A program made the position numbers and the translations under genes. The notes under the pieces were generated by a model that was not told where the DNA came from, ran no database searches, and saw nothing but the letters and a program-made list of their open reading frames with translations. Shown piece by piece: positions 6,526 through 18,443 of a stretch of 20,000 nucleotides of DNA (positions within the stretch are counted from its first letter, which is position 1; each line of letters opens with the position of its first letter). Source of the DNA: an uncultured virus (IMG/VR IMGVR_UViG_3300042346_000356) (taxonomy: Duplodnaviria; Heunggongvirae; Uroviricota; Caudoviricetes); IMG/VR virus record IMGVR_UViG_3300042346_000356; one strand, written 5' to 3'.

Positions 6526-6528
6526 ATT

Positions 6529-6642
6529 GAGCAGTTTATAGACGACTGCTCAGGTCTATTAGCCACGAAGGTTCGACTCCTGCCAACTCTCCACTCGAAG
6601 GAGCATCCGTTGTAAAACCTTTTAAAGTCTCATAGCGGAATG
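6529..6642 (-). ncRNA. Candidate small RNA 1 ending in a pseudoknot motif
   Basis: TAGTATAAT upstream, no ORF, long hairpin CATTCCG...CGGATG, CTCC-TTCGAGT-GGAG hairpin, terminal TAGAC-CT-GAGCA-GTC-GTCTA-TAAAC-TGCTC. Confidence 0.55.
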
Positions 6643-6667
6643 CTATATATTATACTATAGTTTTAAT

Positions 6668-6733
6668 GAGCAGTTTTTTACAGTCATGCTCAGGACCATA
6701 CCAGTTATTTATTGTCGCTGTCTCCCCCGACAA
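6668..6733 (-). ncRNA. Candidate small RNA 2 ending in a pseudoknot motif
   Basis: TAGTATAAT overlapping the hsp20 stop, ATTGTCG-GGGGAGACAG-CGACAAT hairpin, terminal GTC-CT-GAGCA-T-GAC-TGTAAAAAAC-TGCTC. Confidence 0.5.
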
Positions 6734-6743
6734 TTAGATTATA

Positions 6744-7148
6744 CTATAGAATTTCTATAGTCTTGGGTAGTTTGTCTTCTGGGATCTGCTTTTCAAGTCT
6801 GATATCTAGGATACCGTCCTTGAATTCAGCCCCAACAACTTCTACAAACTCAGGAAGGGTGAAGATATCTGTGAACTTGCGAGCAGCAATTCCCTTGTGT
6901 AGATACTCTGCGCCCTCTGGCAATTCAGCATCCTGCTTCTCGCCCTTGATTGTAAGTTTGCGATTGTCTAGCGATACTGAAACATCATCCTTAGAGAACC
7001 CAGCCAAAGCAAATGAAAGAATATACTCTGTATCATTTAGTTTGATTTGGTTATAAGGTGGATAGTTTGTTGTTGTTGTTACCTTCTGTAGATTTGAGAA
7101 GGTGTTAAAAAATGGATCATTAAAAAGATCCAGTGCTGTTTTTACCAT
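6744..7148 (-). CDS. hsp20: Small heat-shock protein (Hsp20/IbpA family)
   Basis: NYPPYN, ALAGF, YLHKGIAARKF and FKDGILDIRL alpha-crystallin motifs. Confidence 0.95.
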   Translation of the reverse strand: MVKTALDLFNDPFFNTFSNLQKVTTTTNYPPYNQIKLNDTEYILSFALAGFSKDDVSVSLDNRKLTIKGEKQDAELPEGAEYLHKGIAARKFTDIFTLPEFVEVVGAEFKDGILDIRLEKQIPEDKLPKTIEIL

Positions 7149-7149
7149 A

Positions 7150-7200
7150 TTATTCCCCTTTCAAGCGAATAAGTTAATTTACCCCCCATTTGGGCAGGTA
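7150..7200 (-). promoter_or_regulatory. ROSE-like RNA thermometer in the hsp20 5' UTR
   Basis: Two hairpins; the 3' hairpin TTATTCGCTT-GAAA-GGGGAATAA pairs a UCGCU motif (bulged G) against the SD. Confidence 0.6.
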
Positions 7201-7234
7201 TAAATATTATAGCACAGTATGCTACAATTGTAAA

Positions 7235-8170
7235 ATGAGTATAGAGTTTTATCTGGGAGTTGACAAATTTTTAGTTCAAAACAAGCCAAACGCCACAAAT
7301 ATTATCAATAAAGACCCATATAATATATATATAAACTTTTGGAGAGGTGGATACTCCAAACCTATCATTGAGTCTGTAACTTCATCAATGCCAAATCTCT
7401 ACATATATGATCATTTAACTATTATAAGTGAAACGGACTCTGGAGTTGAAGAAGTAGTTAAGGTTGATACAAAGAATCCAACCCTCTTGTCTGTTTATAA
7501 TTCAAATTATTTGCATTTTTTATATGAAACTATAGGAAGAGTATTGTATTTAAGATATTTGGGCTTAGACTTTTATACAAAGATATTGGTCCAGGGATAT
7601 CTAGATAATTTAATATTTTCAAAGTCAAACTGGGAAGAGTTTGGAATTTTACAAGATGATATATTATATACAACTCAATTTAAAGAATTAAGTTTGTCTA
7701 AATCAATTAACACATCTAGCAAAAGCCTCATACATTTAGAAAGTTACTCAATAACATCTAAACTTTTAAGAGAAACCCTTAGATTGAGTGGTAGCCCAAT
7801 TAAAGACATATACGTTTCTAGAAAAAATGCAATTAGCGATAAAAGGTTTATTAAGGATGAGGAGTTGATAGAAGAATACTTTATTGGCCTTGGATATGAG
7901 ATTGTGTATAATGAAGAACTAACATTTGATCAGCAGAGAAGTATTTATAAAGACGCAAGAACAATTGTTGGTATTTCAGGAACAGGTTTAGTTAATATAT
8001 TGTTCGCCCCAGATGAATGTAAACTGATTGAGTTAAGAACAAGTGATTTTAGAAACGATGATGTATTTAAGTATATATGTAAATTTTTAGATAATGAATA
8101 CGAGTTAGTTGAGTGCTTTGACAGTAACAACAGTGCAGCGCCAGTTATTAATAAACTTACTTCTTTATAA
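7235..8170 (+). CDS. Glycosyltransferase family 61 (DUF563-like)
   Basis: NYLHFLYE, IYVSRKNA...R, EELTFDQQ, GISGTGLVNILF and LIEL motifs; TACAAT 6 nt before ATG 7235. Confidence 0.85.
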   Translation: MSIEFYLGVDKFLVQNKPNATNIINKDPYNIYINFWRGGYSKPIIESVTSSMPNLYIYDHLTIISETDSGVEEVVKVDTKNPTLLSVYNSNYLHFLYETIGRVLYLRYLGLDFYTKILVQGYLDNLIFSKSNWEEFGILQDDILYTTQFKELSLSKSINTSSKSLIHLESYSITSKLLRETLRLSGSPIKDIYVSRKNAISDKRFIKDEELIEEYFIGLGYEIVYNEELTFDQQRSIYKDARTIVGISGTGLVNILFAPDECKLIELRTSDFRNDDVFKYICKFLDNEYELVECFDSNNSAAPVINKLTSL

Positions 8171-8705
8171 TAAATATCTGCAAACTAACTCTAAACTTAT
8201 CTTTATTTAGAGTTGGAGTTGTGTAATGCATAAGACCACCGTTATTTACTACCATTGAGTTATACTTTGGAACAATTGTTTTCCACTCTCTAAGACTTTC
8301 GTTATACCAGTGAAACATTCCACCATCTTCAATATCCCAATCTTTATTTAAATAGAGTGTTATTGTTTTTCTATCTGGTCCATCACTATGCTTACCAATG
8401 TATGATCCAGGAGTCCAAACAAAAGCCATGCAACCACTACCATTATAAAAATCAGCATCAGTTGCAAGGTCCATTAACCCAAGATCAACTAGTTTATTGG
8501 TTATTTTATCTGTTATGTTTTTAGGCAGTTTCATGCATATGACTGCAGAACTTTTTTGAACAAGATATTCTTCCCATGCATAATTAGTCCAAACATCTAC
8601 CTTTTCTTCACTATTTACATTTTTACCAGTGATAGTTCCAATTGCAAAGTTATATATGTCTTTGCATAATTCATCTGGTAGCGCATTGTTATATTGTTTC
8701 ATCAC
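8157..8705 (-). CDS. 2OG-Fe(II) oxygenase (prolyl-4-hydroxylase-like)
   Basis: HSD...TLYLN..W...GG...H...RVSLQ. Confidence 0.88.
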   Translation of the reverse strand: MMKQYNNALPDELCKDIYNFAIGTITGKNVNSEEKVDVWTNYAWEEYLVQKSSAVICMKLPKNITDKITNKLVDLGLMDLATDADFYNGSGCMAFVWTPGSYIGKHSDGPDRKTITLYLNKDWDIEDGGMFHWYNESLREWKTIVPKYNSMVVNNGGLMHYTTPTLNKDKFRVSLQIFIIKK

Positions 8706-8706
8706 G

Positions 8707-8779
8707 TATCTCCAACGGGATTCGAACCCGTGTTGCCACCGTGAAAGGGTGGAGTCCTAGGCCACTAGACCATGGAGAC
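8707..8779 (-). tRNA. tRNA-Glu(TTC)
   Basis: GTCTCCA/TGGAGAT acceptor stem, CCACC-CTTTCAC-GGTGG anticodon arm, GGTTCGAATCC. Confidence 0.95.
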
Positions 8780-8780
8780 C

Positions 8781-8854
8781 TGGAGCGAGTGACCAGAATC
8801 GAACTGGCACTATCTGCTTGGAAGGCAGAGACACTACCATTATGTAACACTCGC
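8781..8854 (-). tRNA. tRNA-Gly(TCC)
   Basis: GCGAGTG/CACTCGC acceptor stem with encoded CCA, TCTGC-CTTCCAA-GCAGA anticodon arm. Confidence 0.95.
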
Positions 8855-8894
8855 TTGTTAAATAAGTATATCAGATAACTGCTATAATGTAAAC

Positions 8895-9401
8895 ATGAAC
8901 GTAAAAGTTATTAATCCTGTAATCACAAATAATATTATTAACAATAGCGAAATTGAAGAATTAAAAAATTTAATTAATAGCAATAAGCACTTGCTGCAGT
9001 ATGACCCATATTATGGAAGAATGGTTGTAACGGATACGTTAATTCCAGAATTAATGCACTATTCTAATAAATTGAGGGATAAAGCCAGAGAGATTTTTGG
9101 CAGCAATACATTAGAACCAACCTATGTATTATTTGGACATTATTTTGGTAAAGATGCAAATTTAAAAAAGCATAAGGATAATTCTTTTGACTGTATGTAT
9201 AATCTAGATGTTTGTCTATATCAAAATGATCCGTGGGATGTATATGTTGAAGGAAAGCCATATACCTTAAATCCAGGAGATGCTTTATCTTTTAATGGTG
9301 TTCACAACCTGCACTGGAGAGAATCATTTCCAAACCCAGAAACTAATGAAGTTGGAATGCTTTTCTTTTTCTATACTGAACCAGAATACATTAAAAACTA
9401 A
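8895..9401 (+). CDS. 2OG-Fe(II) oxygenase-like protein
   Basis: LKKHKD...LNPGDAL...HWRE...LFFFY; leaderless TATAAT. Confidence 0.78.
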   Translation: MNVKVINPVITNNIINNSEIEELKNLINSNKHLLQYDPYYGRMVVTDTLIPELMHYSNKLRDKAREIFGSNTLEPTYVLFGHYFGKDANLKKHKDNSFDCMYNLDVCLYQNDPWDVYVEGKPYTLNPGDALSFNGVHNLHWRESFPNPETNEVGMLFFFYTEPEYIKN

Positions 9402-9977
9402 TTACTTAACATACTTTCCCCATAATGGAAGGCTGTATCTGTGTCCGTATTCAATAGCATTAACGCCATGAGGGTATGTTAAATTCCCAGGGAATATAAC
9501 GAGATCTCCCATCTCAGGCTTAATAGATATATTCTGATTAGGAAAAGTAATTTCTCCACCTCCATAGCCATCACTAAAATAGATTACGCCAGATACTTGT
9601 AATACGGACACAACATCATCATCTGCGTGAACACCCATATCATTTCCTACAGACCATTTAACTATCCAATGATCATCTAGGCTATGTTCTAGTTTAACTC
9701 CATACTGATCCTGCATGGTTTGTAATGATTTATCTATATAGTATTTAACAATTGATCTAACATTGTCTGGTAAATCATCTACCTGAATCTGTCTGCGATC
9801 ATCTGGGTCAACATCTGGACCATCAGGAAGCAAAAAATCTACAGACTCAACTATAAGTTTAGAGTCTTCTGCAGAAACAAAAGACTTAAAGGTTTTTATA
9901 TTATCTGAAGATTTGCCAATCTTGTTGGTGCCTTCGTAATAAGCGCCAGTTCTGGGGAGGCCTCTCCTAGTATCCAT
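9402..9977 (-). CDS. 2OG-Fe(II) oxygenase (prolyl-4-hydroxylase-like)
   Basis: HADD...YFSDGYGGGEITF...PEMGDLVIFP...HGV...G.RY; start most likely 9977 (TAATG overlap with the upstream micro-ORF). Confidence 0.88.
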   Translation of the reverse strand: MDTRRGLPRTGAYYEGTNKIGKSSDNIKTFKSFVSAEDSKLIVESVDFLLPDGPDVDPDDRRQIQVDDLPDNVRSIVKYYIDKSLQTMQDQYGVKLEHSLDDHWIVKWSVGNDMGVHADDDVVSVLQVSGVIYFSDGYGGGEITFPNQNISIKPEMGDLVIFPGNLTYPHGVNAIEYGHRYSLPLWGKYVK

Positions 9978-10102
9978 TATGCTCCGATTGACGGCATAAC
10001 TTGATCGCAAGGACATACGATTGATACTGGAAGATCGTGAACCTCAGTCTCAATAGAAATAATAGTATTACATTCACTACACTTGTATATTTTTTTAGTC
10101 AT
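9977..10102 (-). CDS. Zinc-ribbon micro-protein (41 aa)
   Basis: MTKKIYKCSSECNTIISIETEVHDLPVSIVCPCDQVMPSIGA. Confidence 0.6.
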   Translation of the reverse strand: MTKKIYKCSECNTIISIETEVHDLPVSIVCPCDQVMPSIGA

Positions 10103-10119
10103 ACTAAATGATACCACAC

Positions 10120-10269
10120 CTACTGCTCGTGTCTTTTGCATTTAGGATAATTTCCTGGTGTTCCACGAAGTTTAGGACCACATATCTCACATTTTAGTCG
10201 CAGCATAAATTCAAATTTATCTAATTTATTGGCTAAATCTAGCATAGCCCTGGCCTTTTCTTCGTTCAT
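10120..10269 (-). CDS. Small Zn-finger-like protein
   Basis: MNEEKARAM...CEIC...CKRH; ATGA overlap with the upstream ORF. Confidence 0.55.
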   Translation of the reverse strand: MNEEKARAMLDLANKLDKFEFMLRLKCEICGPKLRGTPGNYPKCKRHEQ

Positions 10270-10376
10270 GACGGCTGGACGGCTGTAAAATGTTTCTTGC
10301 ATACACTTATGATCTGGCCATCTTCTTTGCGTGGCTGATTATATAATGCTTCTCTTTCGCAATATTCACAGTTCAT
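10266..10376 (-). CDS. Small Zn-finger-like protein (36 aa)
   Basis: MNCEYCEREALYNQPRKEDGQIISVCKKHFTAVQPS; leaderless TATACT. Confidence 0.6.
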   Translation of the reverse strand: MNCEYCEREALYNQPRKEDGQIISVCKKHFTAVQPS

Positions 10377-10438
10377 AATTTAAGTATAGCATATATAGTA
10401 TTTAAAGTTCGGCGCAAAATAGAGAGGGGTGAACAACT

Positions 10439-10780
10439 CTACGAGTCTTTCGACTCGCTATCTGTTTCTTTCTCCCAGTATGCTATACCGTCTTCATCGT
10501 AGTCGTTCCAACCATCACCTGACATATCTAAATTCATCTCACTTAATTCTTTCTTCCAAGCACCCATATCTATGGTGTAGTAAGTTCCCCACCATTCATA
10601 AGGCTTGTTTAGTATTCTATACATTTTTGCGTGGTATTTATAACGCCAACCAAAGTCTTCATCTTCATCCAGATTAACACACTTAACTAAATGATTACCA
10701 GCAAACTCTCCACATATATTGCCTATCCATCGTAATGGAAGTATTTTAGTTCTTTCTGTCTTGGTTGAATGATTTATCAT
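10439..10780 (-). CDS. Hypothetical protein
   Basis: ORF-track frame; likely start MINHSTK; Trp-rich acidic C-terminus. Confidence 0.65.
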   Translation of the reverse strand: MINHSTKTERTKILPLRWIGNICGEFAGNHLVKCVNLDEDEDFGWRYKYHAKMYRILNKPYEWWGTYYTIDMGAWKKELSEMNLDMSGDGWNDYDEDGIAYWEKETDSESKDS

Positions 10781-11052
10781 CCTTTGGCACCCACACTTTC
10801 TTTCCATCTTTGTAGACAGGCCAATAGCCTAGGCTACGCCAGTCCATCTGTGCTATCTTTGGTTCCTTCATCCATACTCCTATCCCACAATATTAAGCAC
10901 TTAGTGCATTGAATTCCTTCTTCACGCATATACCAAGTATGGCTACATTCTTTTTGCACACCACACCCTATAATCACTCATTGTCTGATGGTTATCCCAG
11001 TATTCAATGTTTTCTTTGTTCATTCCGCAGGTTTTGCAGATTCTTTCTATCA

Positions 11053-11196
11053 TTACCAGTCCTTATAGTTATCTTTGTTGTCTACGTTCCAAGATGCACT
11101 AATTTTTACTAACTCTTTATGAATAGCCATTGCTCTTTCCCACTCTTCATCAGAGTCATAGGCTGATCTATCAGAATTTGGCAGAAAGTTTATCAT
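11053..11196 (-). CDS. Hypothetical micro-protein (47 aa)
   Basis: MINFLPNSDRSAYDSDEEWERAMAIHKELVKISASWNVDNKDNYKDW; TAATG overlaps with its neighbours. Confidence 0.5.
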   Translation of the reverse strand: MINFLPNSDRSAYDSDEEWERAMAIHKELVKISASWNVDNKDNYKDW

Positions 11197-11307
11197 TATT
11201 GTCTGTGTCGCTTTCTATTGCCAAACTTAGCCTTGATATCAGCCTTAGCCTGATCCACAATGGCTTTAGTAATCTCTTCAACAGTAAACTCTTGGTCGAA
11301 GGTTTGT

Positions 11308-11514
11308 TCAGTATCCACCTAGGCACTCATTTCTTGTATGATATAGTCTAATCTTGGTCATTGTCTTTTTGTTGGGGGCATACAATTCTTCACCGCAACA
11401 AGCAGTCTTAAGATACCACTCTTTGGCAAAGAAGTCATAAACCATACCCTTATAGTTCTCATATTTCTTGGCTACAAAGGTCTCAAATGGGTCAGGTATT
11501 TCCATATTAATCAT
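11308..11514 (-). CDS. Hypothetical Cys/His protein
   Basis: 68 aa; CC...H...C; preceded by TTGACT-N17-TATACT at 11521-11549. Confidence 0.7.
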   Translation of the reverse strand: MINMEIPDPFETFVAKKYENYKGMVYDFFAKEWYLKTACCGEELYAPNKKTMTKIRLYHTRNECLGGY

Positions 11515-11545
11515 ACATCTAGTATAGCGGTTTTGGCGGGGGAAG

Positions 11546-12163
11546 TCAATATGACCTATGATACTTATTATGTCTAACTATAGCCTCAGTGTTAAATACA
11601 ATAGAGTATCTATCTCTTACTCTTAGTGACCAGTCAACATCTTCTTCTTGACCCCATATGAGGTTTTCATTAAGTGGATGGTGCTCCATAACATATTTCT
11701 TGACTATCATATATGATCCAGATATATACATATGTTTGGTCAAAGACCAGTCATCAGTTGGTATCTGGGTATAGCGAGGAATCTTGGGATGATCCCAGAT
11801 AACCCAATCATATCTATATCTAGAACCATCAATGTATAGTTGAGTGTTAGTTGCAATATCCCAATCATTGCCAAAATCAAGAAAAGCAGAATACCACTTA
11901 TAATCAAATATAAAGTAGTCGTGCATCAAAATAACATTTTCGTATTTGGCATTTCTGGATAAGATATTTTTCTTTTTAGTTATCCACATAGGGGTAGGTG
12001 AGTCAAATGGTATTTGGATTACATCTGGATCTATCTGACTATGGGCAGGACCAATGATTAAAATCTCATAGTTAGGTATCTTTAAAGACTTTATGCTTCT
12101 TATAGTCTCAAGTAGGCGATCTACATTTTTGTAGTCAGTCGTAATCCCAAATGTAAAATCCAT
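11546..12163 (-). CDS. Glycosyltransferase family 2-like (GT-A fold)
   Basis: FTFGITT...YEILIIG...WITKKKN...MHDY...EEDVDWS.R. Confidence 0.82.
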   Translation of the reverse strand: MDFTFGITTDYKNVDRLLETIRSIKSLKIPNYEILIIGPAHSQIDPDVIQIPFDSPTPMWITKKKNILSRNAKYENVILMHDYFIFDYKWYSAFLDFGNDWDIATNTQLYIDGSRYRYDWVIWDHPKIPRYTQIPTDDWSLTKHMYISGSYMIVKKYVMEHHPLNENLIWGQEEDVDWSLRVRDRYSIVFNTEAIVRHNKYHRSY

Positions 12164-12279
12164 CTAACAAGTATAGCCTATTTTGCGGGGGAGCATAAGA
12201 GAGCATCGTAATCCCTAGTATAAGATATAAACCCCTATAGCCCCATATACCCAGTAACAGGGTTTGATATCCCCTGGAT

Positions 12280-12366
12280 TTATTGAGTCATACGGATTTG
12301 TTGAAGATAGGCCATATAGTTAAGAAAAATGAATAGGCCAAGCATTATGATTAAGAAAGGTTTCAT
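12280..12366 (-). CDS. Membrane micro-protein (28 aa)
   Basis: MKPFLIIMLGLFIFLNYMAYLQQIRMTQ; ATGA overlap. Confidence 0.45.
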   Translation of the reverse strand: MKPFLIIMLGLFIFLNYMAYLQQIRMTQ

Positions 12367-12503
12367 TTGAAGAAGTCTATCCCCACATACCATTTAAAGA
12401 GATATAAGCCAATCTCCCATTCGTGTTTAATGGGATATCCCCAGTTAGCAACATAGACCCCAATAGCATAGTTAGAGGTCATTCTGCCATAGTGTAGTTT
12501 CAT
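12363..12503 (-). CDS. Aromatic-rich micro-protein (46 aa)
   Basis: MKLHYGRMTSNYAIGVYVANWGYPIKHEWEIGLYLFKWYVGIDFFK. Confidence 0.5.
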   Translation of the reverse strand: MKLHYGRMTSNYAIGVYVANWGYPIKHEWEIGLYLFKWYVGIDFFK

Positions 12504-12524
12504 ATACCTATCATATCATAAGAG

Positions 12525-12755
12525 TTATCCACAGGTGTATAATTAGTGTATGAAGAACTTTATCTACACATATGTGTGTCCAGAGTGTGAGTCTGAACTT
12601 GAGTTTAAGTCAATGAATAAGGCATCAGATGAGGTTATGTGTATGTGTGGATCAATGATGAAGTTGATTAGGTATTGGGCTATAAGTGCAGAGTTAGATA
12701 GTTATCCACAGCCTGATAAGCCAAAAATGTCATAGTTATCCACATGTTATCCACA
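12525..12755 (+). promoter_or_regulatory. Cluster of four perfect DnaA boxes
   Basis: TTATCCACA at 12525, 12702, 12736 and 12747, all in the same orientation and all preceded by G. Confidence 0.8.
12550..12735 (+). CDS. Zinc-ribbon protein
   Basis: YTYVCPEC...CMCG; leaderless TATAAT. Confidence 0.65.
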   Translation: MKNFIYTYVCPECESELEFKSMNKASDEVMCMCGSMMKLIRYWAISAELDSYPQPDKPKMS

Positions 12756-12975: not shown

Positions 12976-13099
12976 GCCCATTTCATGCAAAACCTTCATA
13001 TAGAATTTGCTCAAATTTGCTCAGAAAATAAAGAAAACCTTTATAAAAATATATAAAGGTTTGATAAATCAGGAGAAAAGGTTTGAAACTGGAAAGAAA

Positions 13100-13360
13100 T
13101 TAGTTCTTCGTAATCTCTGCTTCTTTATTAGTGTATATGGTATACATCTTATTGAAGTCAGATAGTTTTTCTACTGGCAGTCCCCTGAAAAAAAGGCGGG
13201 AGTTATAGAAGGCATGCAAACCACTATACTTAAACAAACCTCTATTGACTCTATCAATTAGTCTACCCATAGCCAAACCTAGTTCTCTTTGATCAGAATG
13301 ATATGATGCCTTTGCATTTACATTTGAACCATTAAACCTTGCATTATTATGAGGACTCAT
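13100..13360 (-). CDS. Hypothetical protein
   Basis: Likely start MSPHNNARF just after TGGTATAAT (leaderless). Confidence 0.6.
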   Translation of the reverse strand: MSPHNNARFNGSNVNAKASYHSDQRELGLAMGRLIDRVNRGLFKYSGLHAFYNSRLFFRGLPVEKLSDFNKMYTIYTNKEAEITKN

Positions 13361-13413
13361 AAAACCATTATACCAGGATATAAGATTTGACAAACCAAGG
13401 TTTGTATGGTATA

Positions 13414-13518
13414 AGGTTTGGGGAAAAATATTTGTCCTTCGTAATATAGGTTTGGGGAAAATAAAGGTTTGATCGTAATATCCAGGTTTGGGGAAAAATT
13501 TTTGATCGTTCGTAATAT
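13414..13518 (+). repeat. Three tandem ~35-bp iteron-like repeats
   Basis: AGGTTTGGGGAAAA-variable-TCGTAATAT starting at 13414, 13448 and 13484. Confidence 0.8.
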
Positions 13519-13589
13519 AGTTGACAAAAAAATGTAATGGTTTGGATATGTCCGATTTGTCTGAATCCTCGGGGATTTCCCCAGCCTTT

Positions 13590-13901
13590 TTACAGGTCTG
13601 GGGTATCCTCAGAAGTTTTCTTTTTGTTGAATGCGTATTGTAAAAGAAACCCTAATTCAATTTCTTCAAGTTCATCTACTTCTTCTTCTTCAACCTTTAG
13701 CAAACCGATAAGCATATCAAATGTTTCTTCAATATACTGTTCTCCAAGTGGTGTTGCCTCTTTAACCAAACCCTGCGCCATCATATACGCCATTGGCAAA
13801 CCAATATCGTTATACTCCACAAAATTCTTGAAGTCTGGGTCTTCTCTAAATTCGATCCATAGTTGCCCTAGGATTCCTGCTTTATCTGCGAGTAGTGCCA
13901 T
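13590..13901 (-). CDS. Hypothetical acidic protein
   Basis: 103 aa ORF overlapping the upstream ORF, AAAGGGA RBS. Confidence 0.8.
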   Translation of the reverse strand: MALLADKAGILGQLWIEFREDPDFKNFVEYNDIGLPMAYMMAQGLVKEATPLGEQYIEETFDMLIGLLKVEEEEVDELEEIELGFLLQYAFNKKKTSEDTPDL

Positions 13902-14127
13902 TGTGTGTCCCTTTCATCTCTAACATAAGTTTATCATACTCTTCCATTGCTGCGAGGCTCATTACCTCAAACCTGTGGTAATTTATTAGTGGTAGGTTTC
14001 TTACTAAGTAAAATCCTACTCTTTCTAAATCAACCGCAAAATCTTGGGTAAGGAGTCTGCCTAACTGCTCTGCTGCTCGTGTTTCTTTTGTCTTGCTTGC
14101 TTCGCTTCGTCTAATTGAATAAGCCAT
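13882..14127 (-). CDS. Hypothetical protein
   Basis: 81 aa, GAGGAG RBS, TGGTATAAT upstream. Confidence 0.8.
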   Translation of the reverse strand: MAYSIRRSEASKTKETRAAEQLGRLLTQDFAVDLERVGFYLVRNLPLINYHRFEVMSLAAMEEYDKLMLEMKGTHNGTTRR

Positions 14128-14152
14128 AGTTACTCCTCTCTTTCATTATACC

Positions 14153-14198
14153 AAAAAAGTAGGGGGAGCGCAAGACTGCAGGTCTCACGCCCCACCCT
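14153..14198 (-). terminator. Intrinsic terminator
   Basis: AGGGTGGGCGTGAGAC-CTGCA-GTCTTGCGCTCCCCCT followed by ACTTTTTT. Confidence 0.75.
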
Positions 14199-14220
14199 TT
14201 ATTACTAGGGGACCCACTCC

Positions 14221-14586
14221 CTAGATTTGCTCAGCCAAAACCTTTGGGGCATATGCATTAATAAAATCTCTCCAGTTGACAACGTTTCCATTATCATCAA
14301 TGATAGTCTCTTTAGACACATCGATAATGACAGTGGTGTCACCTAAATCAAAGTTGGTGCCCTTGACAGCATAAATTCCAAATCCTGTTTCATCCAAGAT
14401 TGAATCTTGCATAAGATAACTAATCATCATACGGTTAAAGTAAGCGTTATCGCTCCACCTAGGCTTTGAATGCTCTAGGGCCATTGCTAGGTCCCGCTGC
14501 CATTCTGTCTCTCCCCAGTGGCTATACAGCACTACAGATGCCTCGTCTTCAACATCCTTGAATACAAAATGAATACGTGCCCCCAT
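14221..14586 (-). CDS. Conserved-type phage early protein (LYSHWG motif)
   Basis: Start MGARIHFVF with a GAGGA RBS. Confidence 0.8.
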   Translation of the reverse strand: MGARIHFVFKDVEDEASVVLYSHWGETEWQRDLAMALEHSKPRWSDNAYFNRMMISYLMQDSILDETGFGIYAVKGTNFDLGDTTVIIDVSKETIIDDNGNVVNWRDFINAYAPKVLAEQI

Positions 14587-14587
14587 T

Positions 14588-14770
14588 TTAGTCCTCTTCC
14601 TCTTCTTCAATTGATTGAATTTCTAAAGGATACCAGTCAATGGCATATACTTCAACATCTTCGTCCCGTTCGATTCTTTCGATCTCAGCAAGGGCATCTT
14701 CTTCAGTCTCCGCCTCAATCTCAAAATCATATTGTGTTTCTCGTGTGGCCTCAATTTTAAACATTGGCAT
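14588..14770 (-). CDS. Acidic protein, DpnD/PcfM-like motif
   Basis: FKIEATRETQYDFEIEAETEEDALA. Confidence 0.7.
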   Translation of the reverse strand: MPMFKIEATRETQYDFEIEAETEEDALAEIERIERDEDVEVYAIDWYPLEIQSIEEEEED

Positions 14771-15218
14771 TTCTATTCTCCAGTCCTACTAGGGTTATCT
14801 CTTCAAGGGTAGCACATTCAGGGCACTTTTCCAAATCGTGCTCATCGAATGCATCTCTAACTATATTATCAGGGTCCTCAAACTCAGCGCTACAGTTCTC
14901 ACAGTAGAACCAATTATAACTAACACGAACCTGTATTGTTACATTATCTGGGCAAGGTTTATCAGTGATAAAATAACCAAGCCTATTAACAAAGCCCCAA
15001 CCAGACCAGATATAACTTCCACCGTCGTCTCCATCTCCATACATCCATATTTTGTTAGCGTCCTGTGCTTTTACAAACTCTACCTCATCGCCATATGTCT
15101 CAAACATAATGCCACCATCCCCATTATCAAATGAGGCATTTGGGTCTATATGATTAACGATTGGCTTATAGGTATCACACCACTCATCAAAGTCCATCTC
15201 AATAAAGTTATCTATCAT
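14757..15218 (-). CDS. Hypothetical protein with C-terminal zinc ribbon
   Basis: FETYG...GFVNRLGYFIT; CENC...CPEC. Confidence 0.8.
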   Translation of the reverse strand: MIDNFIEMDFDEWCDTYKPIVNHIDPNASFDNGDGGIMFETYGDEVEFVKAQDANKIWMYGDGDDGGSYIWSGWGFVNRLGYFITDKPCPDNVTIQVRVSYNWFYCENCSAEFEDPDNIVRDAFDEHDLEKCPECATLEEITLVGLENRNANV

Positions 15219-15427
15219 TATTCCTCCAGTGAAACGGGCGGGTTGTATTCCTTATCAAATATTATATGGTATGCCACTGACAAACCGTCAACAAATCCCT
15301 GTGCCTCTGTGCGCTCCATAGATTGCATTGCGTCGCCATAGTCATTGTCTTCTTCCTCCTTAGCAATCGCTAAGAAATCTAAAGTAGCCTTGTCAATCAT
15401 TTGCTCTAACATTTCTTGTGGTTTCAT
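15218..15427 (-). CDS. Hypothetical acidic protein
   Basis: 69 aa, start/stop overlaps with neighbours. Confidence 0.75.
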   Translation of the reverse strand: MKPQEMLEQMIDKATLDFLAIAKEEEDNDYGDAMQSMERTEAQGFVDGLSVAYHIIFDKEYNPPVSLEE

Positions 15428-15561
15428 TTAATTACCACCAATTTACATTGAGGGCAGTTATCAGGAATAACCTTATCAGTTAAGACGTATCCACACTCAA
15501 CACATTTCTTTACCTTGATAGGCTTTTCTCTATTAAGTAGTTTCCTTAATTCATCGTTCAT
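15424..15561 (-). CDS. Rubredoxin-like zinc-ribbon micro-protein (45 aa)
   Basis: MNDELRKLLNREKPIKVKKCVECGYVLTDKVIPDNCPQCKLVVIK; ATGA overlaps; GGAG RBS. Confidence 0.65.
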   Translation of the reverse strand: MNDELRKLLNREKPIKVKKCVECGYVLTDKVIPDNCPQCKLVVIK

Positions 15562-15797
15562 TGGGTCTCCTCTAGGTGCTTTCTGTCTATAGATAAATTA
15601 TACGTCAAGACATAGCAGTTTGTCAAGGCCTGCAGATATCCCTGCAAAAATCTGTCATCGTTATCTCCGTCAAGCAGTTGCTCAACATCAAGCATTTCAT
15701 TCTTAAGATAACCGTGCATTAGATCGATTAATGGAATAGAGATATCCTCTAATCCTTTTTCTAGATAGTCAGGTAGAAAAGGATACTTATCGCTCAT
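15558..15797 (-). CDS. Hypothetical protein
   Basis: 79 aa, AGGAG RBS. Confidence 0.75.
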   Translation of the reverse strand: MSDKYPFLPDYLEKGLEDISIPLIDLMHGYLKNEMLDVEQLLDGDNDDRFLQGYLQALTNCYVLTYNLSIDRKHLEETQ

Positions 15798-15944
15798 CCA
15801 ATACTCCTAGTAAGTGATTGCATAGTGCAATCTCTGCCTCTTTGACTCTGTAGAAGTGATGACTGTTAACATAGTCAATCTTTTCTTGGTCTTGCTCTAG
15901 TGATATCTTATGTATCTTTAAATACTCTCTGAATGTATCTAGGT

Positions 15945-16178
15945 TCACTTTGTGTGCCACTCTCCTAGTTCAGGTAGGAATACATTTTCTTCTATATCCC
16001 ATTGAGCGTCATCCCAACTAAGTTCATCAGTCATTATCTTGGCAATCTCATCTATGAAGGTTTGCATAACGGCTTCTGCGTGGTGTTTATTCTTAGCCTT
16101 GATATTTGTAATAGAGATAGCAAGGTCGCAAGAGTAGTAGTCTTGTAGCATTGGGTCTGATATTGTTTGGGTTGTCAT
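15945..16178 (-). CDS. Hypothetical acidic protein
   Basis: 77 aa, ATGA overlap. Confidence 0.75.
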   Translation of the reverse strand: MTTQTISDPMLQDYYSCDLAISITNIKAKNKHHAEAVMQTFIDEIAKIMTDELSWDDAQWDIEENVFLPELGEWHTK

Positions 16179-16393
16179 ACATATTCCTTTTCGTAGGCTG
16201 AGTGGGATGTTACTACTAATTCTAGCATTTCGTCAGGGTATCTGTCAAGCACCCAAGTAAGGGCCTCTCCAGCAGTCTTAAAGTCAGAGGCGGTAGTGCT
16301 ATTGCCATAGCCTTGAATAGTTGCTTCCCAGCAGTCAACGCCACCAGGAGAGCAGGAGTAGTTCATTTCATATATTGCTACTTGTTTCGTCAT
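16175..16393 (-). CDS. Hypothetical protein
   Basis: 72 aa; TATAAT just upstream (leaderless). Confidence 0.75.
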   Translation of the reverse strand: MTKQVAIYEMNYSCSPGGVDCWEATIQGYGNSTTASDFKTAGEALTWVLDRYPDEMLELVVTSHSAYEKEYV

Positions 16394-16396
16394 ATA

Positions 16397-16627
16397 TTAA
16401 TTATAGGGGTTTGTGTTGATTTTTACAACTTCTCTGGGTGTGATCTTCGTCACATCTGCAAGGATAGGCTCCCAAGCATCTTCATAACTAATATAGTTTA
16501 ACTTCCTACCACATGGGCAGGTCATTTCCACAACCCCCAGGGGAAAGCCAAAGCCATCCCTAGCAGTAAACTCAACGAGGGCATCACACTCATCAGGGTC
16601 ACAAACAAATGTATACTTAATCCACAT
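16397..16627 (-). CDS. Zinc-ribbon protein
   Basis: YTFVCDPDEC...CPCG. Confidence 0.75.
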   Translation of the reverse strand: MWIKYTFVCDPDECDALVEFTARDGFGFPLGVVEMTCPCGRKLNYISYEDAWEPILADVTKITPREVVKINTNPYN

Positions 16628-16788
16628 TAGAAGTATCCCTCTGCCATTAGTCCTTCAAGGAAGTCTTTGGTTTTCCACAGGGTATTGTAAAGCCAAGGGT
16701 CATCATCAGAGTTAATAGTAGTCATAACAGACTGAACTCCCAAGATCATATCTAGTGCATCTACTTCTTCATATCCTACTAGTGGCAT
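16627..16788 (-). CDS. Hypothetical protein (53 aa)
   Basis: Likely start MPLVGYEEV with an AGGAG RBS. Confidence 0.65.
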   Translation of the reverse strand: MPLVGYEEVDALDMILGVQSVMTTINSDDDPWLYNTLWKTKDFLEGLMAEGYF

Positions 16789-16955
16789 TATTCTCCTACC
16801 TCTATTCCAGCATAAAATGCTATAGTGTTTAGTGTTGTATGTATGTGGCAGTCGCAAGCCTCTCCACCCATATTTTCTTCAAACTCTAGGTGAGAGTAGT
16901 TGCTTTCATATATTTCATTGATTAGGTCGTCTATCGTATTCATTGTTTGGGTCAT
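16788..16955 (-). CDS. Hypothetical protein (55 aa)
   Basis: MTQTMNTIDDLINEIYESNYSHLEFEENMGGEACDCHIHTTLNTIAFYAGIE...; preceded by TTGATT-N17-TACAAT at 16962-16990. Confidence 0.65.
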   Translation of the reverse strand: MTQTMNTIDDLINEIYESNYSHLEFEENMGGEACDCHIHTTLNTIAFYAGIEVGE

Positions 16956-17056
16956 AGATTAATTGTAGCAAAGATTGGGGAAAAAATCAAATCTATCGTA
17001 AAGAAATTTGGGGAAAAATATCATTCCTTCGTAAAATTATTTTATTAAAAATATTA

Positions 17057-17072
17057 TGTGACCCACATCACA
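17057..17072. promoter_or_regulatory. CRP/GlxR-type site
   Basis: TGTGA-CCCACA-TCACA, perfect TGTGA-N6-TCACA in an AT-rich intergenic stretch. Confidence 0.7.
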
Positions 17073-17099
17073 TTTCCTCGGGGCCCCATTCACGCTCAG

Positions 17100-17173
17100 C
17101 GATTCCAACGGGACTTGAACCCGTAGCCTCTACCGTGACAGGGTAGCGATCTAACCAATTGATCTATGGAACC
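17100..17173 (-). tRNA. tRNA-Asp(GTC)
   Basis: GGTTCCA/TGGAATC acceptor stem, CTACC-CTGTCAC-GGTAG anticodon arm, GGTTCAAGTCC. Confidence 0.95.
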
Positions 17174-17177
17174 TTGC

Positions 17178-17205
17178 GAGCAGTTTTAATTCTTGCTCAG
17201 GAATT
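17178..17205 (-). ncRNA. Pseudoknot motif copy 3
   Basis: AATTC-CT-GAGCA-A-GAATT-AAAAC-TGCTC. Confidence 0.65.
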
Positions 17206-17212
17206 TTTTTTG

Positions 17213-18235
17213 TTATGCTAAAGACATAACATTCTGAACTACTTTTAGCAAACGATTTTTTTCTGCGTTGATAGCAGGGTCAAAACCACTTGCGCTTGCG
17301 AGAATAGATTCGTTAGAACCACCACGAGCAGAACGATACCAGTCAAGGCGTTCAGTAAGCGCATTAAACGCACCCCACGCATTACCAGCAATCATTCCAT
17401 TAAATTCACCTGTGTAGATGTCGTTAATGGTATCAACTTTATTTTCCCATTTCTTTACGGCACCCTTAGCATCTTTTTCAGGCTTTGGATAAGCAGCAAG
17501 AATGATGTCGTTGAATTGCTTAGCAGAAACTTCTTTCTCAATCATAGCCTTAGCCATAACATCAAATTCGTCCATATAAGCATTAGCAAGACCAAGAGTT
17601 TCACGAGCAATAGCAACCTTGCCGTTAGCGGTCTGTGTGTGGCGAATCTTGAAAGATTGCTTGATTCCCTTATTTTTCTTACGACCTACGCCACCAAGCG
17701 CAAGGTTAAGAGTATTAGCGCACACTACACGAACAGGTGTAATGCTTGCTTGAATAGCGATTGAGCCATCGTGTGATGTGTTGATGAGCAAATAAGTTTT
17801 TACCTTATCACTTACACCATTAGGGTCAAGAATTGTTTCACGCTCTAAAGCAAGAGCGCCAAATACTACACGCCCACCTTTAATTGAGCCAGCAGTTTCC
17901 CAACGACCACCGCCGTCTAGGATATTATCACCAAATGAAAATAAATCTTCATTTTGTAAAACGTGATAGCGCTCACCTACGACACCAAGAATGTCTGTCT
18001 GTGAATTGTCTGTCGGATTTGTGCGAAGAACATATTGGTATGCCTTGTCGCTTGTTAGGTGTGTAGGTGTTTCTAAATCTTCAAGGCGAACATTCCACCC
18101 ATTAAGATTAGCAGCAGCAAGCATTTCGCTTGTTGTTTTTTCTTCTGTGAATACAGTTCCCAATCCGTGCCAAGCAGGTTCTCTGAATGATGCGAATGAG
18201 GTCTTGCCATTTTGTGTTTCTAAATCGTGAGCCAC
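17213..18235 (-). CDS. DUF932 / TIGR03299-family phage-plasmid protein
   Basis: MAH...REPAWHGLG, YHVLQN, WETAGSIKGG, NTSHDGS, TPVRVVCANTL, IRHT, AWGAFNALTE. Confidence 0.92.
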   Translation of the reverse strand: MAHDLETQNGKTSFASFREPAWHGLGTVFTEEKTTSEMLAAANLNGWNVRLEDLETPTHLTSDKAYQYVLRTNPTDNSQTDILGVVGERYHVLQNEDLFSFGDNILDGGGRWETAGSIKGGRVVFGALALERETILDPNGVSDKVKTYLLINTSHDGSIAIQASITPVRVVCANTLNLALGGVGRKKNKGIKQSFKIRHTQTANGKVAIARETLGLANAYMDEFDVMAKAMIEKEVSAKQFNDIILAAYPKPEKDAKGAVKKWENKVDTINDIYTGEFNGMIAGNAWGAFNALTERLDWYRSARGGSNESILASASGFDPAINAEKNRLLKVVQNVMSLA

Positions 18236-18268
18236 GATATTCCTTCTTTCTGTTGTGTTGATATTTCA

Positions 18269-18290
18269 AGTATAGCAGGACTGACTGACA
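18269..18290 (-). promoter_or_regulatory. Phage-type promoter TGTCAGT-N9-TATACT
   Basis: One of three equally spaced copies upstream of consecutive genes. Confidence 0.75.
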
Positions 18291-18356
18291 TAAGCAAATC
18301 AGGATAGTTAGATGTGGATAAAATGGACATTTCGTAAAAGATCACCCCCTAGGCTA

Positions 18357-18374
18357 CGGCGTGTCGACTTGACA
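18357..18374 (+). promoter_or_regulatory. WhiA-type GACAC motif beside a TTGACA
   Basis: CGGCGTGTCG (reverse CGACACGCCG) followed 2 nt later by TTGACA. Confidence 0.45.
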
Positions 18375-18415
18375 AACAAAGCCTGCGCCCCGAGGATTTT
18401 TGCGGGGAACTGAGT

Positions 18416-18443
18416 GAGCAGTTTTTAAACGTGCTCAGGTTTA
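18416..18443 (-). ncRNA. Pseudoknot motif copy 4
   Basis: TAAAC-CT-GAGCA-C-GTTTA-AAAAC-TGCTC. Confidence 0.65.

What the first reader, a model, noticed from the sequence alone, without database searches (positions are those of the whole stretch)
6529..18443. Dispersed covarying H-type pseudoknot RNA motif (4 copies) at transcript 3' positions
Seen: four minus-strand copies at 6529-6558, 6668-6698, 17178-17205 and 18416-18443 with the layout S1-CT-GAGCA-N(1-3)-S1'-A-rich linker ending AAAC-TGCTC. The core C-CT-GAGCA and AAAC-TGCTC is invariant. Stem 1 changes in a compensatory way: TAGAC/GTCTA, (TG)GTC/GAC(TG), AATTC/GAATT, TAAAC/GTTTA. All copies lie on the sense strand just after a gene or small-RNA candidate, and one ends 4 nt before the 5' end of tRNA-Asp. 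Inference: a compact pseudoknot with an A-rich minor-groove loop acting as an exonuclease block, processing signal, ribozyme or protein/ligand-binding RNA. I cannot match it to a named family.
Basis: partly seen in the sequence, partly recalled or inferred. Interest (0 to 1): 0.85.

Follow-up and report, generated by a model that had tools for sequence, protein, structure and literature searches.

The report
Widespread phage intergenic RNA pseudoknot
A 28-base knotted RNA fold, kept by compensating mutations in hundreds of phage genomes, sits just after genes and just before tRNAs, matches no catalogued RNA family, and probably marks or protects transcript ends.

Summary
All four minus-strand copies are where stated (4 matches vs 0.01 expected). 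The source contig has an exact fifth copy and a variant sixth.

The motif is a large, uncatalogued RNA family. Rfam gave no match.

Both stems of the H-type pseudoknot covary. Stem 1 is NNNC/GNNN, and its three inner pairs are Watson-Crick in 103-104 of 104. Stem 2 (RRGYA/URCYY) showed 0-1 A.C mismatches among 108-114 sampled copies. AAAC precedes stem 2' in 52 of 56.

Copies are sense-strand and intergenic. The spacer after the stop codon has a sharp 5-nt minimum. tRNAs lie 4-14 nt downstream and almost never upstream.

Function is untested. My best guess (0.35) is a 3'-end protecting or defining module for the upstream RNA. Rivals are a tRNA-like processing signal, a small ribozyme or aptamer, a downstream leader, and a protein site.

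A sequence look-up in earlier scan notes found no look-alike. Notes on other phage pseudoknots may or may not be this motif.

The parts
6529..6558 (-). Pseudoknot copy 1 (S1 UAGAC/GUCUA, junction loop GUC), at the 3' end of small-RNA candidate 1
   Evidence: 38.8 bits, E 4.9e-10
6668..6698 (-). Pseudoknot copy 2 (long S1 UAUGGUC/GACUGUA), at the 3' end of small-RNA candidate 2
   Evidence: (29.6 bits, E 2.6e-7)
17178..17205 (-). Pseudoknot copy 3 (S1 AAUUC/GAAUU), canonical length
   Evidence: 46.1 bits, E 3.4e-12
18416..18443 (-). Pseudoknot copy 4 (S1 UAAAC/GUUUA), canonical length
   Evidence: 46.0 bits, E 3.7e-12
17099..17173 (-). tRNA-Asp(GUC); its 5' end lies 4 nt after copy 3
17213..18235 (-). 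DUF932 gene (340 aa); its stop codon lies 7 nt before the 5-bp stem 1 of copy 3. The order gene, knot, tRNA-Asp recurs in related contigs.
   Evidence: (PF06067, E 1.7e-47)
18458..18874 (-). 138-aa ORF; its stop codon lies 14 nt before copy 4
6559..6657 (-). Small-RNA candidate 1: -10 box TAGTATAAT (6649-6657) and a roughly 85-nt structured body that runs into copy 1
   Evidence: It is conserved in 6 contigs. Five of 34 predicted pairs show double changes, and G.U pairs fit the sense strand only.
6699..6746 (-). Small-RNA candidate 2: -10 box TAGTATAAT (6738-6746) and a conserved hairpin segment that runs into copy 2
   Evidence: The segment is conserved in L055, L097 and L133.
6497..6525 (-). 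Sigma-70-like promoter (TTGACT, 17 nt, TATACT) starting 4 nt after copy 1
   Evidence: 10 of 12 matches. This is a consensus match only.

Best explanation
The four elements are copies of a very common, uncatalogued phage RNA module: a roughly 28-nt H-type pseudoknot read on the sense transcript. Its anatomy is as follows. Stem 1 has 3 strictly Watson-Crick pairs plus a looser fourth, closed by an invariant C-G. Loop 1 is CU. Stem 2 has 5 pairs (RRGYA with URCYY). One junction base (A or U) follows. Loop 3 has variable length but ends in AAAC, placed to lie in the minor groove of stem 1. An A usually follows the motif. I propose it acts in cis as a 3'-end module for the RNA upstream of it. It sits at least 5 nt past the stop codon, so a terminating ribosome does not unwind it. 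When the read-through transcript is cut further downstream, 3'-to-5' exonucleases stop at the knot. That cut could be made by RNase P at a tRNA 4-14 nt away, or by other endonucleases before the next promoter or RBS. The knot would thus fix and stabilise the 3' end of the upstream mRNA or small RNA without stopping RNA polymerase. What is shown: the fold, the strand, the conservation and the placement. What is inferred: transcript cutting, the exonuclease arrest and any effect on stability.
For: FOLD. Stem 1 covaries. In 104 equal-length copies the pairs 8-19, 7-20 and 6-21 carry 51, 64 and 39 double changes, and 0 of 500 shuffles reach the observed covariation score. Pairs 9-18, 8-19 and 7-20 are Watson-Crick in 103, 103 and 104 of 104. 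With permuted 5' arms only 12% reach 4 pairs, against 115 of 145 observed. Stem 2 covaries in samples that did not fix the pair. Pair 15-29 is CG 75, UG 28, UA 11, CA 0. Pair 13-31 is AU 99, GC 8, GU 1, AC 0. Pair 12-32 is GC 83, AU 16, GU 5, AC 1, other 3. Fisher p values are 2.6e-6, 2.6e-11 and 1e-13. AAAC precedes stem 2' in 52 of 56 stem-1-valid hits when it is not imposed. STRAND. There are 35 G.U or U.G cells against 1 A.C in stem 2. All 18 nearby tRNAs are on the motif strand. PLACEMENT. A sense ORF of at least 50 codons stops within 30 nt upstream in 87 of 138 copies; the antisense control gives 17. The spacer is exactly 5 nt in 24 copies and 0-4 nt in only 2, behind unrelated genes. 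One of 138 copies is spanned by an open sense frame. tRNAs lie 4-14 nt downstream in 16 of 138, and upstream in 1, at 100 nt. This asymmetry fits an element that belongs to the RNA before it. Flanking genes are diverse: 62 of 119 upstream and 68 of 105 downstream are singleton clusters. In this window the copies end transcription units and are followed by a promoter-like site, a -10 box, a tRNA, or more than 100 nt of non-coding DNA. No terminator-like site lies at any copy.
Against: Nothing here measures RNA ends or half-lives. Predicted stability is modest: stem 1 alone is -1.2 to -4.7 kcal/mol and stem 2 alone about -5 kcal/mol. That is far weaker than the usual hairpin barriers, as I recall them. 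A passive barrier would not need about 16 nearly fixed bases across phages of many host phyla; such conservation points to specific recognition or chemistry. Between 29 and 46 of 138 copies lie 13-30 nt before a start codon, so a role for the downstream gene is not excluded. The hard 5-nt limit would apply to any structure that must stay folded, and the pile-up at 5 nt may only reflect genome compaction. The copies sampled are not phylogenetically independent.
Confidence: 0.35

Rival explanations
1. It is a tRNA-like acceptor mimic read by universal tRNA-processing enzymes. The stacked stems imitate an acceptor/T helix, so RNase P cuts in loop 1, or RNase Z, 3' trimming and CCA addition act after the A that follows the motif. 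This would punctuate polycistronic phage transcripts in any host.
For: The positions map onto a pre-tRNA end. An invariant U sits before the first stem-2 pair, that pair is G-C in 83 of 108, and an A follows the motif in 104 of 145. The next two bases are mostly pyrimidines, and G occurs there in 3 of 145 each. ACCA follows in about 12 of 104 by my reading of alignment A1. Host range spans many phyla, which fits a universal enzyme. I recall, but did not look up, that E. coli RNase P cleaves the pseudoknotted acceptor arm of a plant-virus tRNA-like structure. An earlier scan note (e1-5943965) reached a similar reading for another phage pseudoknot.
Against: There is no T-loop or other tRNA element, and ARAGORN and the Rfam tRNA model do not see it. 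Only a minority carry CCA. Many ACCA cases sit before tRNA-Asp in related phages, so they may share ancestry. The G avoidance can be explained by the need to keep loop 1 unpaired. Acceptor mimicry would not require the fixed loop 3 AAAC or the fixed stem-2 sequence.
Confidence: 0.15
2. It is a new small self-cleaving ribozyme or a ligand-binding aptamer. The fixed bases would form an active site or pocket at the junction of the two stems.
For: It combines a pseudoknot, many nearly invariant unpaired or junction bases (CU, W, AAAC, the trailing A) and presence in phages of many host phyla. A comparative-genomics paper names these as marks of RNAs with sophisticated biochemical tasks (PMC5737381, passages read). 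Its distribution resembles that of small ribozymes in phages: intergenic, sense strand, several per genome, next to tRNAs. Theta ribozymes are an example (PMC10879173, passages read). Its function would be host-independent.
Against: At about 28 nt it is smaller than any natural self-cleaving class I can recall. There is no expression platform and no linked gene family, which argues against a riboswitch. One metatranscriptome contig of a relative appears to run through the tRNA-Asp, knot and upstream-gene junction (loose ends at 17108 and 17207). That would fit uncleaved RNA, but it could also be DNA carry-over.
Confidence: 0.15
3. It is a 5' leader or insulator for the gene that follows. It could be a 5'-terminal structure that protects the downstream RNA from 5'-end-dependent decay, a standby or enhancer element for the next ribosome-binding site, or a spacer that makes each cistron fold independently.
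For: Start codons lie 13-30 nt downstream in 29 (Shine-Dalgarno required) to 46 (any start) of 138. tRNAs follow at 4-14 nt in 16 of 138. Earlier scan notes describe pseudoknots abutting ribosome-binding sites in other phages and plasmids (e1-3083436, e1-5834083). It is unknown whether those are this motif.
Against: Association with the upstream stop is stronger: 87 of 138 against at most 46 of 138. The order tRNA, knot, gene is almost absent (1 against 17), although each tRNA cluster has one entry and one exit. In this window the copies are followed by promoters, a tRNA or long non-coding gaps, not by ribosome-binding sites.
Confidence: 0.15
4. It is a binding site or decoy for a specific protein. 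That could be a phage regulator of early transcripts, or a host nuclease or immune protein that the phage titrates, in the manner of RNA antitoxin mimics.
For: Sequence-specific conservation alongside a freely varying stem 1 is typical of protein-recognised RNA hairpins. There are several dispersed copies per genome, up to 8 in one record.
Against: No candidate partner was found. Window proteins show no RNA-binding family and neighbours are diverse. A single partner is hard to reconcile with hosts from Saccharibacteria to Clostridia, cyanobacteria and Proteobacteria, unless it is universal. Copies are dispersed singly, not in tandem next to a toxin gene.
Confidence: 0.12
5. It is a DNA-level signal, such as a promoter, a protein operator, a recombination site or a mobile mini-element, and not an RNA.
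For: Conserved blocks of 8-9 bp are dispersed between gene cassettes of unrelated phages. Some copies directly precede -10 or -35-like boxes.
Against: The two stems interleave, which cannot form a cruciform. Wobble pairs fit one strand only: 35 G.U against 1 A.C. Stem 1 changes freely while staying paired. Orientation follows the genes and tRNAs. Copies 4 nt from a tRNA leave no room for a promoter.
Confidence: 0.03

Closest known systems
Compact triplex-type H-type pseudoknots of plant luteoviruses (-1 frameshift stimulators)
   Same: As recalled, they share nearly the same size and layout: a short stem 1, a 2-nt loop 1 beginning with C, a short stem 2, one extruded junction base, and an A-rich loop 3 in the stem-1 minor groove. 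The three strictly Watson-Crick stem-1 pairs facing three adenines fit that kind of fold. Spacing from the ribosome's A-site codon falls in the same 5-9 nt range.
   Different: This motif lies after stop codons in non-coding spacers. Only 1 of 138 copies is spanned by an open sense frame. It has no slippery site and no overlapping frame. Its conserved sequence is different. It occurs in DNA phages, several per genome.
preQ1-I riboswitch aptamer (Rfam RF00522)
   Same: It is the smallest known natural aptamer, as recalled: an H-type pseudoknot whose A-rich 3' tail lies in the minor groove of P1.
   Different: Rfam gives no match. The junction loop here is 1 variable base, not the longer loop carrying the ligand-reading C. 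Stem 2 does not hide a ribosome-binding site. There is no link to queuosine genes.
3' stabilisers of bacterial and phage mRNAs (REP hairpins, 3' hairpins left by RNase III in phage T7 early RNAs) and the RNase P-made, triple-helix-protected 3' end of the vertebrate MALAT1 RNA (all recalled)
   Same: They are structures placed after a cistron that stop 3' exonucleases without terminating transcription. In the MALAT1 case a compact triplex lies just upstream of a tRNA-like RNase P site, which mirrors the order knot, 4-14 nt, tRNA seen here.
   Different: Those bacterial elements are long GC-rich hairpins of free sequence. This is a weak, sequence-fixed pseudoknot. No end mapping exists for it.
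HDV-like theta ribozymes of gut phages (PMC10879173, passages read)
   Same: Both are small pseudoknotted RNAs, abundant in phage genomes, intergenic, on the sense strand and adjacent to phage tRNAs.
   Different: Theta ribozymes have the nested double pseudoknot of HDV-like ribozymes and sit at tRNA 3' ends. This motif is a single H-type knot at tRNA 5' sides and mostly away from tRNAs. Catalysis is untested.
Pseudoknotted tRNA-like acceptor arms of plant RNA viruses (TYMV type, recalled)
   Same: A 3' strand pairs with a hairpin loop and is followed by A and, in a minority of copies, CCA.
   Different: It is not at a genome 3' end, it lacks the rest of the tRNA-like domain, and CCA is usually absent.

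Membership tests
Any Rfam 15 family | Match to a curated covariance model | tested here: not met
   The whole window at E<=1 returns only tRNAs and chance hits. An 81-nt stretch around copy 3 at E<=10 returns only two CRISPR-repeat models and one sRNA model at 8-15 bits, far below their gathering scores. The stretch 6480-6780 returns one 12-bit chance hit.
preQ1-I riboswitch | Multi-base junction loop with a conserved ligand-pairing C | tested here: not met
   The junction loop is one base: T 52, A 41, C 9, G 2 of 104.
preQ1-I riboswitch | 5' UTR of queuosine-related genes, with stem 2 occluding the ribosome-binding site | tested here: not met
   Downstream genes are diverse (68 of 105 singleton clusters). 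The stem 2' sequence URCYY is not a Shine-Dalgarno sequence. Many copies precede tRNAs or promoters.
-1 frameshift or readthrough stimulatory pseudoknot | Lies inside or at the end of a frame that continues in another or the same frame | tested here: not met
   One of 138 copies is spanned by an open sense frame. Spacers of 5-12 nt occur in all phases, and no common slippery sequence appears in the 66 upstream sequences listed.
-1 frameshift or readthrough stimulatory pseudoknot | Compact H-type fold 5-9 nt from the decoded site | tested here: met
   61 of 138 copies have a stop-to-stem-1 spacer of 5-10 nt, with a minimum of 5. This is a resemblance in geometry only.
Intrinsic (Rho-independent) terminator | GC-rich hairpin followed by a U tract | tested here: not met
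   No terminator-like site lies at any of the four copies. Downstream positions 4-9 are T in about 33-47% of copies, with no U run.
tRNA-like structure or RNase P pseudoknot substrate | Helix end followed by a discriminator purine and CCA | tested here: inconclusive
   A follows in 104 of 145 copies, the next two bases are pyrimidine-rich with G in 3 of 145 each, and ACCA is present in only about 12 of 104.
tRNA-like structure or RNase P pseudoknot substrate | Cleavage by RNase P, or CCA addition or aminoacylation | not testable with these tools
   This needs an enzyme assay.
HDV-like (theta) ribozyme | Nested double pseudoknot, with the cleavage site at a tRNA 3' end | tested here: not met
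   The fold is a single H-type knot. A tRNA lies upstream in 1 of 138 copies, at 100 nt, and downstream in 17. Rfam gives no HDV-like hit.
CRISPR repeat or RNA anti-CRISPR mimic | Match to a repeat family; repeat-like sequence constancy | tested here: not met
   Only sub-threshold hits were found: 15 and 14.4 bits against gathering scores of 48 and 37. Stem 1 differs in every copy.

The most novel reading that the evidence does not exclude
The knot is a self-sufficient or universally read RNA punctuation mark. It would be either the smallest natural self-cleaving ribozyme class, or a minimal pseudoknot substrate of RNase P or RNase Z. Phages of many bacterial phyla would use it to cut read-through transcripts into units with defined, protected ends, independently of host-specific terminators.
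Probability: 0.25. Interest if true: 0.9.

Novelty: new variant of a known kind. Interest (0 to 1): 0.78.

Why it matters
This is a 28-nt RNA with about 16 nearly fixed bases and two covarying stems. Yet it is absent from Rfam and from the papers I could search. That combination has usually marked RNAs with a specific biochemical job. If it protects or defines RNA 3' ends, it is a new, portable way of setting transcript boundaries in bacteria, and a ready-made insulator for synthetic operons. If it is cut by itself or by RNase P or Z, it extends the catalogue of catalytic or tRNA-mimicking RNAs and would explain how phages mature mixed mRNA-tRNA transcripts. The sharp 5-nt limit behind stop codons is also a clean natural read-out of how far a terminating ribosome unwinds mRNA.

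Tried and rejected
- Rfam at permissive thresholds, three times: nothing.
- Near and distant DNA searches of the phage collection with 6 kb of the window: only tRNA matches. No cultured relative was found.
- Protein search with the DUF932 gene: only distant homologues below 60% identity in actinophages, which does not help place the phage.
- BLAST of small-RNA candidate 1: one hit at E=0.1, antisense to the 3' part of a phage tmRNA. I judged it chance. Homologues do not keep a T-arm on that strand, and ARAGORN finds nothing there.
- A generic pseudoknot descriptor over 20 loci gave 253 hits against about 135 in shuffles. It was too noisy for anything beyond showing the RRGYA variants.
I replaced it with degenerate scans.
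- Sequencing runs: lake-water DNA runs hold the window. RNA runs hold only about 10% of its words.
- Laying four metatranscriptome contig sets showed pieces of relatives at 90-95% identity but no information on RNA ends. It is no evidence either way.
- Earlier-findings look-ups by sequence and by place found nothing.
- Literature searches found no description of the motif (passages; supplement search). In one search three of the supplementary files of PMC10690425 could not be searched, and those files may list it among more than 10,000 candidates.
- Considered and dropped: hammerhead (the core does not fit), boxA antiterminator (only UGCUC is shared, and it is paired here), T4-type MotA-box promoter (impossible for copies 4 nt from a tRNA), anticodon-loop or D-arm mimicry (no test available).

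Full report
OBSERVATION

Each has a short 5' arm ending in C. Then come CU, GAGCA, one to three bases, the complementary 3' arm beginning with G, an A-rich stretch ending in AAAC, UGCUC, and usually A. The pattern CTGAGCA-N6-14-AACTGCTC occurs 4 times in the window against 0.01 expected, and 0 of 200 shuffles reach 4. Copy 3 ends 4 nt before tRNA-Asp.

The window is part of a 36.6-kb viral contig estimated to be 34% complete (handle G001). That contig has five exact matches, all on the same strand, and none for the reversed control pattern. It also has a variant sixth copy about 100 nt beyond the window. A covariance model built later finds only the four copies in the window. The next hit has E=0.29 and is a fragment.

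A LARGE FAMILY THAT IS NOT CATALOGUED

Rfam 15 gives nothing at permissive thresholds. These gave 145 distinct instances, counting those of G001.

One variant makes up about 1% of an unbiased sample: the A.C combination at pair 12-32, seen in 1 of 108. That variant alone still yielded 78 good instances. By inference, the collection therefore holds on the order of ten thousand copies. Single records carry up to 8 model matches, clustered within a few kb.

In the bacterial genome collection most of the 120 pattern instances are chance, as expected for 596 Gb. Twenty-nine have a proper stem 1. These lie in MAGs or isolates labelled Saccharibacteria, Adlerbacteria, Lachnospiraceae, Eubacteriales, Clostridium, Eggerthellaceae, Anaerolineae, Calothrix, Coxiellaceae and others. 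Where recognisable, their neighbours are phage or mobile-element genes: an anti-restriction protein, repressor-like regulators and a minor tail protein.

The window's own phage comes from lake water. It encodes Hsp20, 2OG-Fe(II) oxygenases, a HAD-nucleotidyltransferase fusion, DUF932 and five tRNAs. No cultured relative was found.

THE FOLD

Stem 1. In 104 equal-length copies, pair 9-18 is C-G in 103. Pairs 8-19, 7-20 and 6-21 carry 51, 64 and 39 double changes. Overall 91.3% of cells are paired, against 26-39% when the partner is slid. No shuffle of 500 reaches the observed covariation. With 5' arms exchanged between copies only 12% reach 4 pairs, against 115 of 145 observed. The three inner pairs are strictly Watson-Crick (103, 103 and 104 of 104, with no wobble). 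The fourth pair is looser, with 72 Watson-Crick and 9 wobble.

Stem 2. My first scan fixed stem 2, so it could say nothing about it. Model hits in twenty 20-kb regions showed variants that all stay paired: U.G 8, U-A 2, A-U 3, and no mismatch at pairs 12-68, 13-67, 14-64 and 15-63. There is also a subclass ending AAAAGGCUC, with an A.G at the junction pair.

I then scanned with degenerate letters at one pair at a time. Among instances with a valid stem 1:
- Pair 15-29 is CG 75, UG 28, UA 11, CA 0.
- Pair 13-31 is AU 99, GC 8, GU 1, AC 0.
- Pair 12-32 is GC 83, AU 16, GU 5, AC 1, other 3.
- The Fisher p values are 2.6e-6, 2.6e-11 and 1e-13.

The pairs G14-C30 and A16-U28 were fixed by every pattern scan. 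In the model-based alignment A2 the first did not vary (G-C 75 of 75). The second was A-U in 68 and unpaired in the 6 copies of the AAAAGGCUC subclass.

Loop 3. When AAAC is left unspecified, 52 of 56 stem-1-valid hits still have it directly before UGCUCA. Loop 3 may lengthen on its 5' side.

Strand. The wobble pairs (35 G.U or U.G against 1 A.C in stem 2) would be mismatches on the other strand. The structure therefore belongs to the sense-strand RNA. Interleaved stems also cannot be a DNA cruciform.

Shape and stability. Three strict Watson-Crick pairs facing three adenines, a 2-nt loop crossing a 5-bp stem, and one extruded junction base are the layout of compact triplex pseudoknots. That comparison is recalled from the luteovirus frameshift knots and the preQ1-I aptamer; it is not tested here. 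Nearest-neighbour energies are small: stem 1 is -1.2 to -4.7 kcal/mol and stem 2 about -5 kcal/mol. The fold must therefore rely on tertiary contacts or a partner.

PLACEMENT

I analysed 138 instances from the first scan that had at least 250 nt on both sides.
- A sense ORF of at least 50 codons stops within 30 nt upstream in 87. The same test on the opposite strand gives 17.
- The spacer from the stop codon to the 4-pair stem 1 is 0-4 nt in only 2 cases and exactly 5 nt in 24. It then decays: 8, 5, 12, 7 and 5 cases for 6-10 nt. The 24 lie behind unrelated gene ends.
- The same limit shows in the bacterial-contig hits, where ORFs end 11-17 nt before the CC.
- Only 1 of 138 is spanned by an open sense frame.

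From memory, a ribosome with the stop codon in its A site unwinds mRNA to about 5 nt beyond that codon. If so, the knot sits as close as it can without being opened at each termination.

Downstream there are 17 sense tRNAs, 16 of them 4-14 nt away. None is antisense, and only one tRNA lies upstream, at 100 nt. Shine-Dalgarno-led starts lie 13-30 nt away in 29 copies, or 46 if any start is counted. Flanking genes are diverse. The largest upstream cluster is DUF932, with 14 members. The order DUF932, knot, tRNA-Asp recurs in relatives of this phage.

In the window itself:
- Copy 3 follows DUF932 and precedes tRNA-Asp.
- Copy 4 follows a 138-aa ORF and precedes 174 nt of non-coding DNA.
- Copies 1 and 2 close two short conserved non-coding segments, each with its own TAGTATAAT box. 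Each is followed at once by the next -10 box or by a TTGACT-17-TATACT promoter-like site.

Small-RNA candidate 1 is conserved in six contigs. Its hairpins carry compensatory changes and sense-only G.U pairs.

WHAT IT MOST LIKELY DOES

The element is generic, being tied to no gene family. It is transcribed in the sense direction. It sits at the end of coding or small-RNA units, and it precedes tRNAs but does not follow them. Each tRNA cluster has one entry and one exit, so 17 against 1 is a real asymmetry. That ties the knot to the RNA before it.

No copy in the window carries a terminator-like site, so RNA polymerase presumably reads through. My best reading (0.35) is a 3'-end module. After the precursor is cut downstream, by RNase P at the adjacent tRNA or by other endonucleases elsewhere, exonucleases trim back to the knot and stop. 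The upstream message or small RNA then keeps a defined, protected end, and its stop codon stays safe from trimming.

Two facts weigh against a purely passive barrier: the low predicted stability, and the strong sequence conservation, which a barrier would not need. The rivals therefore stay open. They are a tRNA-acceptor mimic read by RNase P, RNase Z or the CCA enzyme (0.15), a very small ribozyme or aptamer (0.15), a leader or insulator for the downstream gene (0.15), a protein site or decoy (0.12), and a DNA signal (0.03). For the tRNA-mimic reading, the U before the first G-C pair, the trailing A, the following pyrimidines and the avoidance of G fit a pre-tRNA end, but CCA is present in only about 12 of 104. 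None of these functions was or could be tested here.

KNOWN RELATIVES AND NOVELTY

In architecture the motif works like the compact triplex pseudoknots. It is not a member of those families. It lies outside reading frames, lacks the ligand-reading loop and gene context of preQ1-I, has no U tract, is not the double pseudoknot of theta ribozymes, and lacks the rest of a tRNA-like domain (see the membership table).

I found no description in the literature. Passages read in PMC10690425, PMC5737381, PMC10879173 and the 2026 preprint do not mention it. Three of the supplementary files of PMC10690425 could not be searched and might list it among thousands of unnamed candidates.

Earlier notes of this scan describe other phage pseudoknots before ribosome-binding sites, and one ending in ACCA. 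A sequence look-up found no look-alike of this motif, so I cannot say whether they are the same thing.

I rate it a new variant of a known kind (cis-acting H-type pseudoknots). Interest is high because of its abundance, conservation and breadth.

LIMITS

- Instances were filtered by a stem-1 rule of my own.
- Many sampled contigs are related to each other.
- ORFs were called mechanically from 250-300-nt flanks.
- The metatranscriptome data gave no information on RNA ends.

Noticed in passing
window 11954-12755 (+), and 18313-18321 (-): There is a cluster of perfect DnaA-box consensus sites (TTATCCACA) at 11980, 12525, 12702, 12736 and 12747, plus near-matches, in a stretch with few long ORFs. 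One more perfect box lies about 95 nt downstream of knot copy 4. With up to 1 mismatch there are 17 sites against 7.6 expected, and 1 of 200 shuffles reaches 17. Perfect boxes also lie downstream of copy 5 and in relative L141. This may be a phage origin or a DnaA-titrating region.
   Followed up: partly
window 6559-6657 (-): Small-RNA candidate 1 has its own TAGTATAAT box and a roughly 85-nt body of three or four hairpins, and it ends in knot copy 1. It is conserved in six contigs with compensatory changes and matches no Rfam family. The overlapping plus-strand ORF 6283-6615 matches no PHROG family and is probably spurious.
   Followed up: partly
window 6699-6746 (-): Small-RNA candidate 2 is a conserved segment GUCGGGGGAGACAGCGAC followed by CUGGUAURGU, which forms an unusually long (7-pair) stem 1 of knot copy 2. 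In three relatives it is preceded by a further hairpin and followed by a thermonuclease-like gene.
   Followed up: no
G001:C1:31750-31787 (-), about 100 nt beyond the window end; also L142, L143, L145, L152: This is a subclass of the knot in which AAAC-UGCUC is replaced by AAAA-GGCUC. It gives an A.G at the junction pair and possibly a shifted 5-pair stem (UGAGC with GCUCA). At least 8 instances occur in the 20 regions examined.
   Followed up: partly
window 18380-18412 (-): A hairpin CCCCG-N8-CGGGG lies 8 nt after knot copy 4. A similar GC hairpin (CGCCGA...UCGGCG) follows copy 5 in L005. Neither has a U tract.
   Followed up: no
window 6560-6640 (+): The strand opposite small-RNA candidate 1 shows a weak likeness (E=0.1) to the 3' tRNA-like end of a Streptomyces phage tmRNA. 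I judged it chance, because homologues do not keep the pairing on that strand.
   Followed up: yes
window 2511-2584, 4912-4986, 8706-8854, 17099-17173 (-): Five dispersed tRNA genes (Arg-UCU, Met, Glu, Gly, Asp) all lie on the minus strand. Only tRNA-Asp is preceded by the knot.
   Followed up: yes
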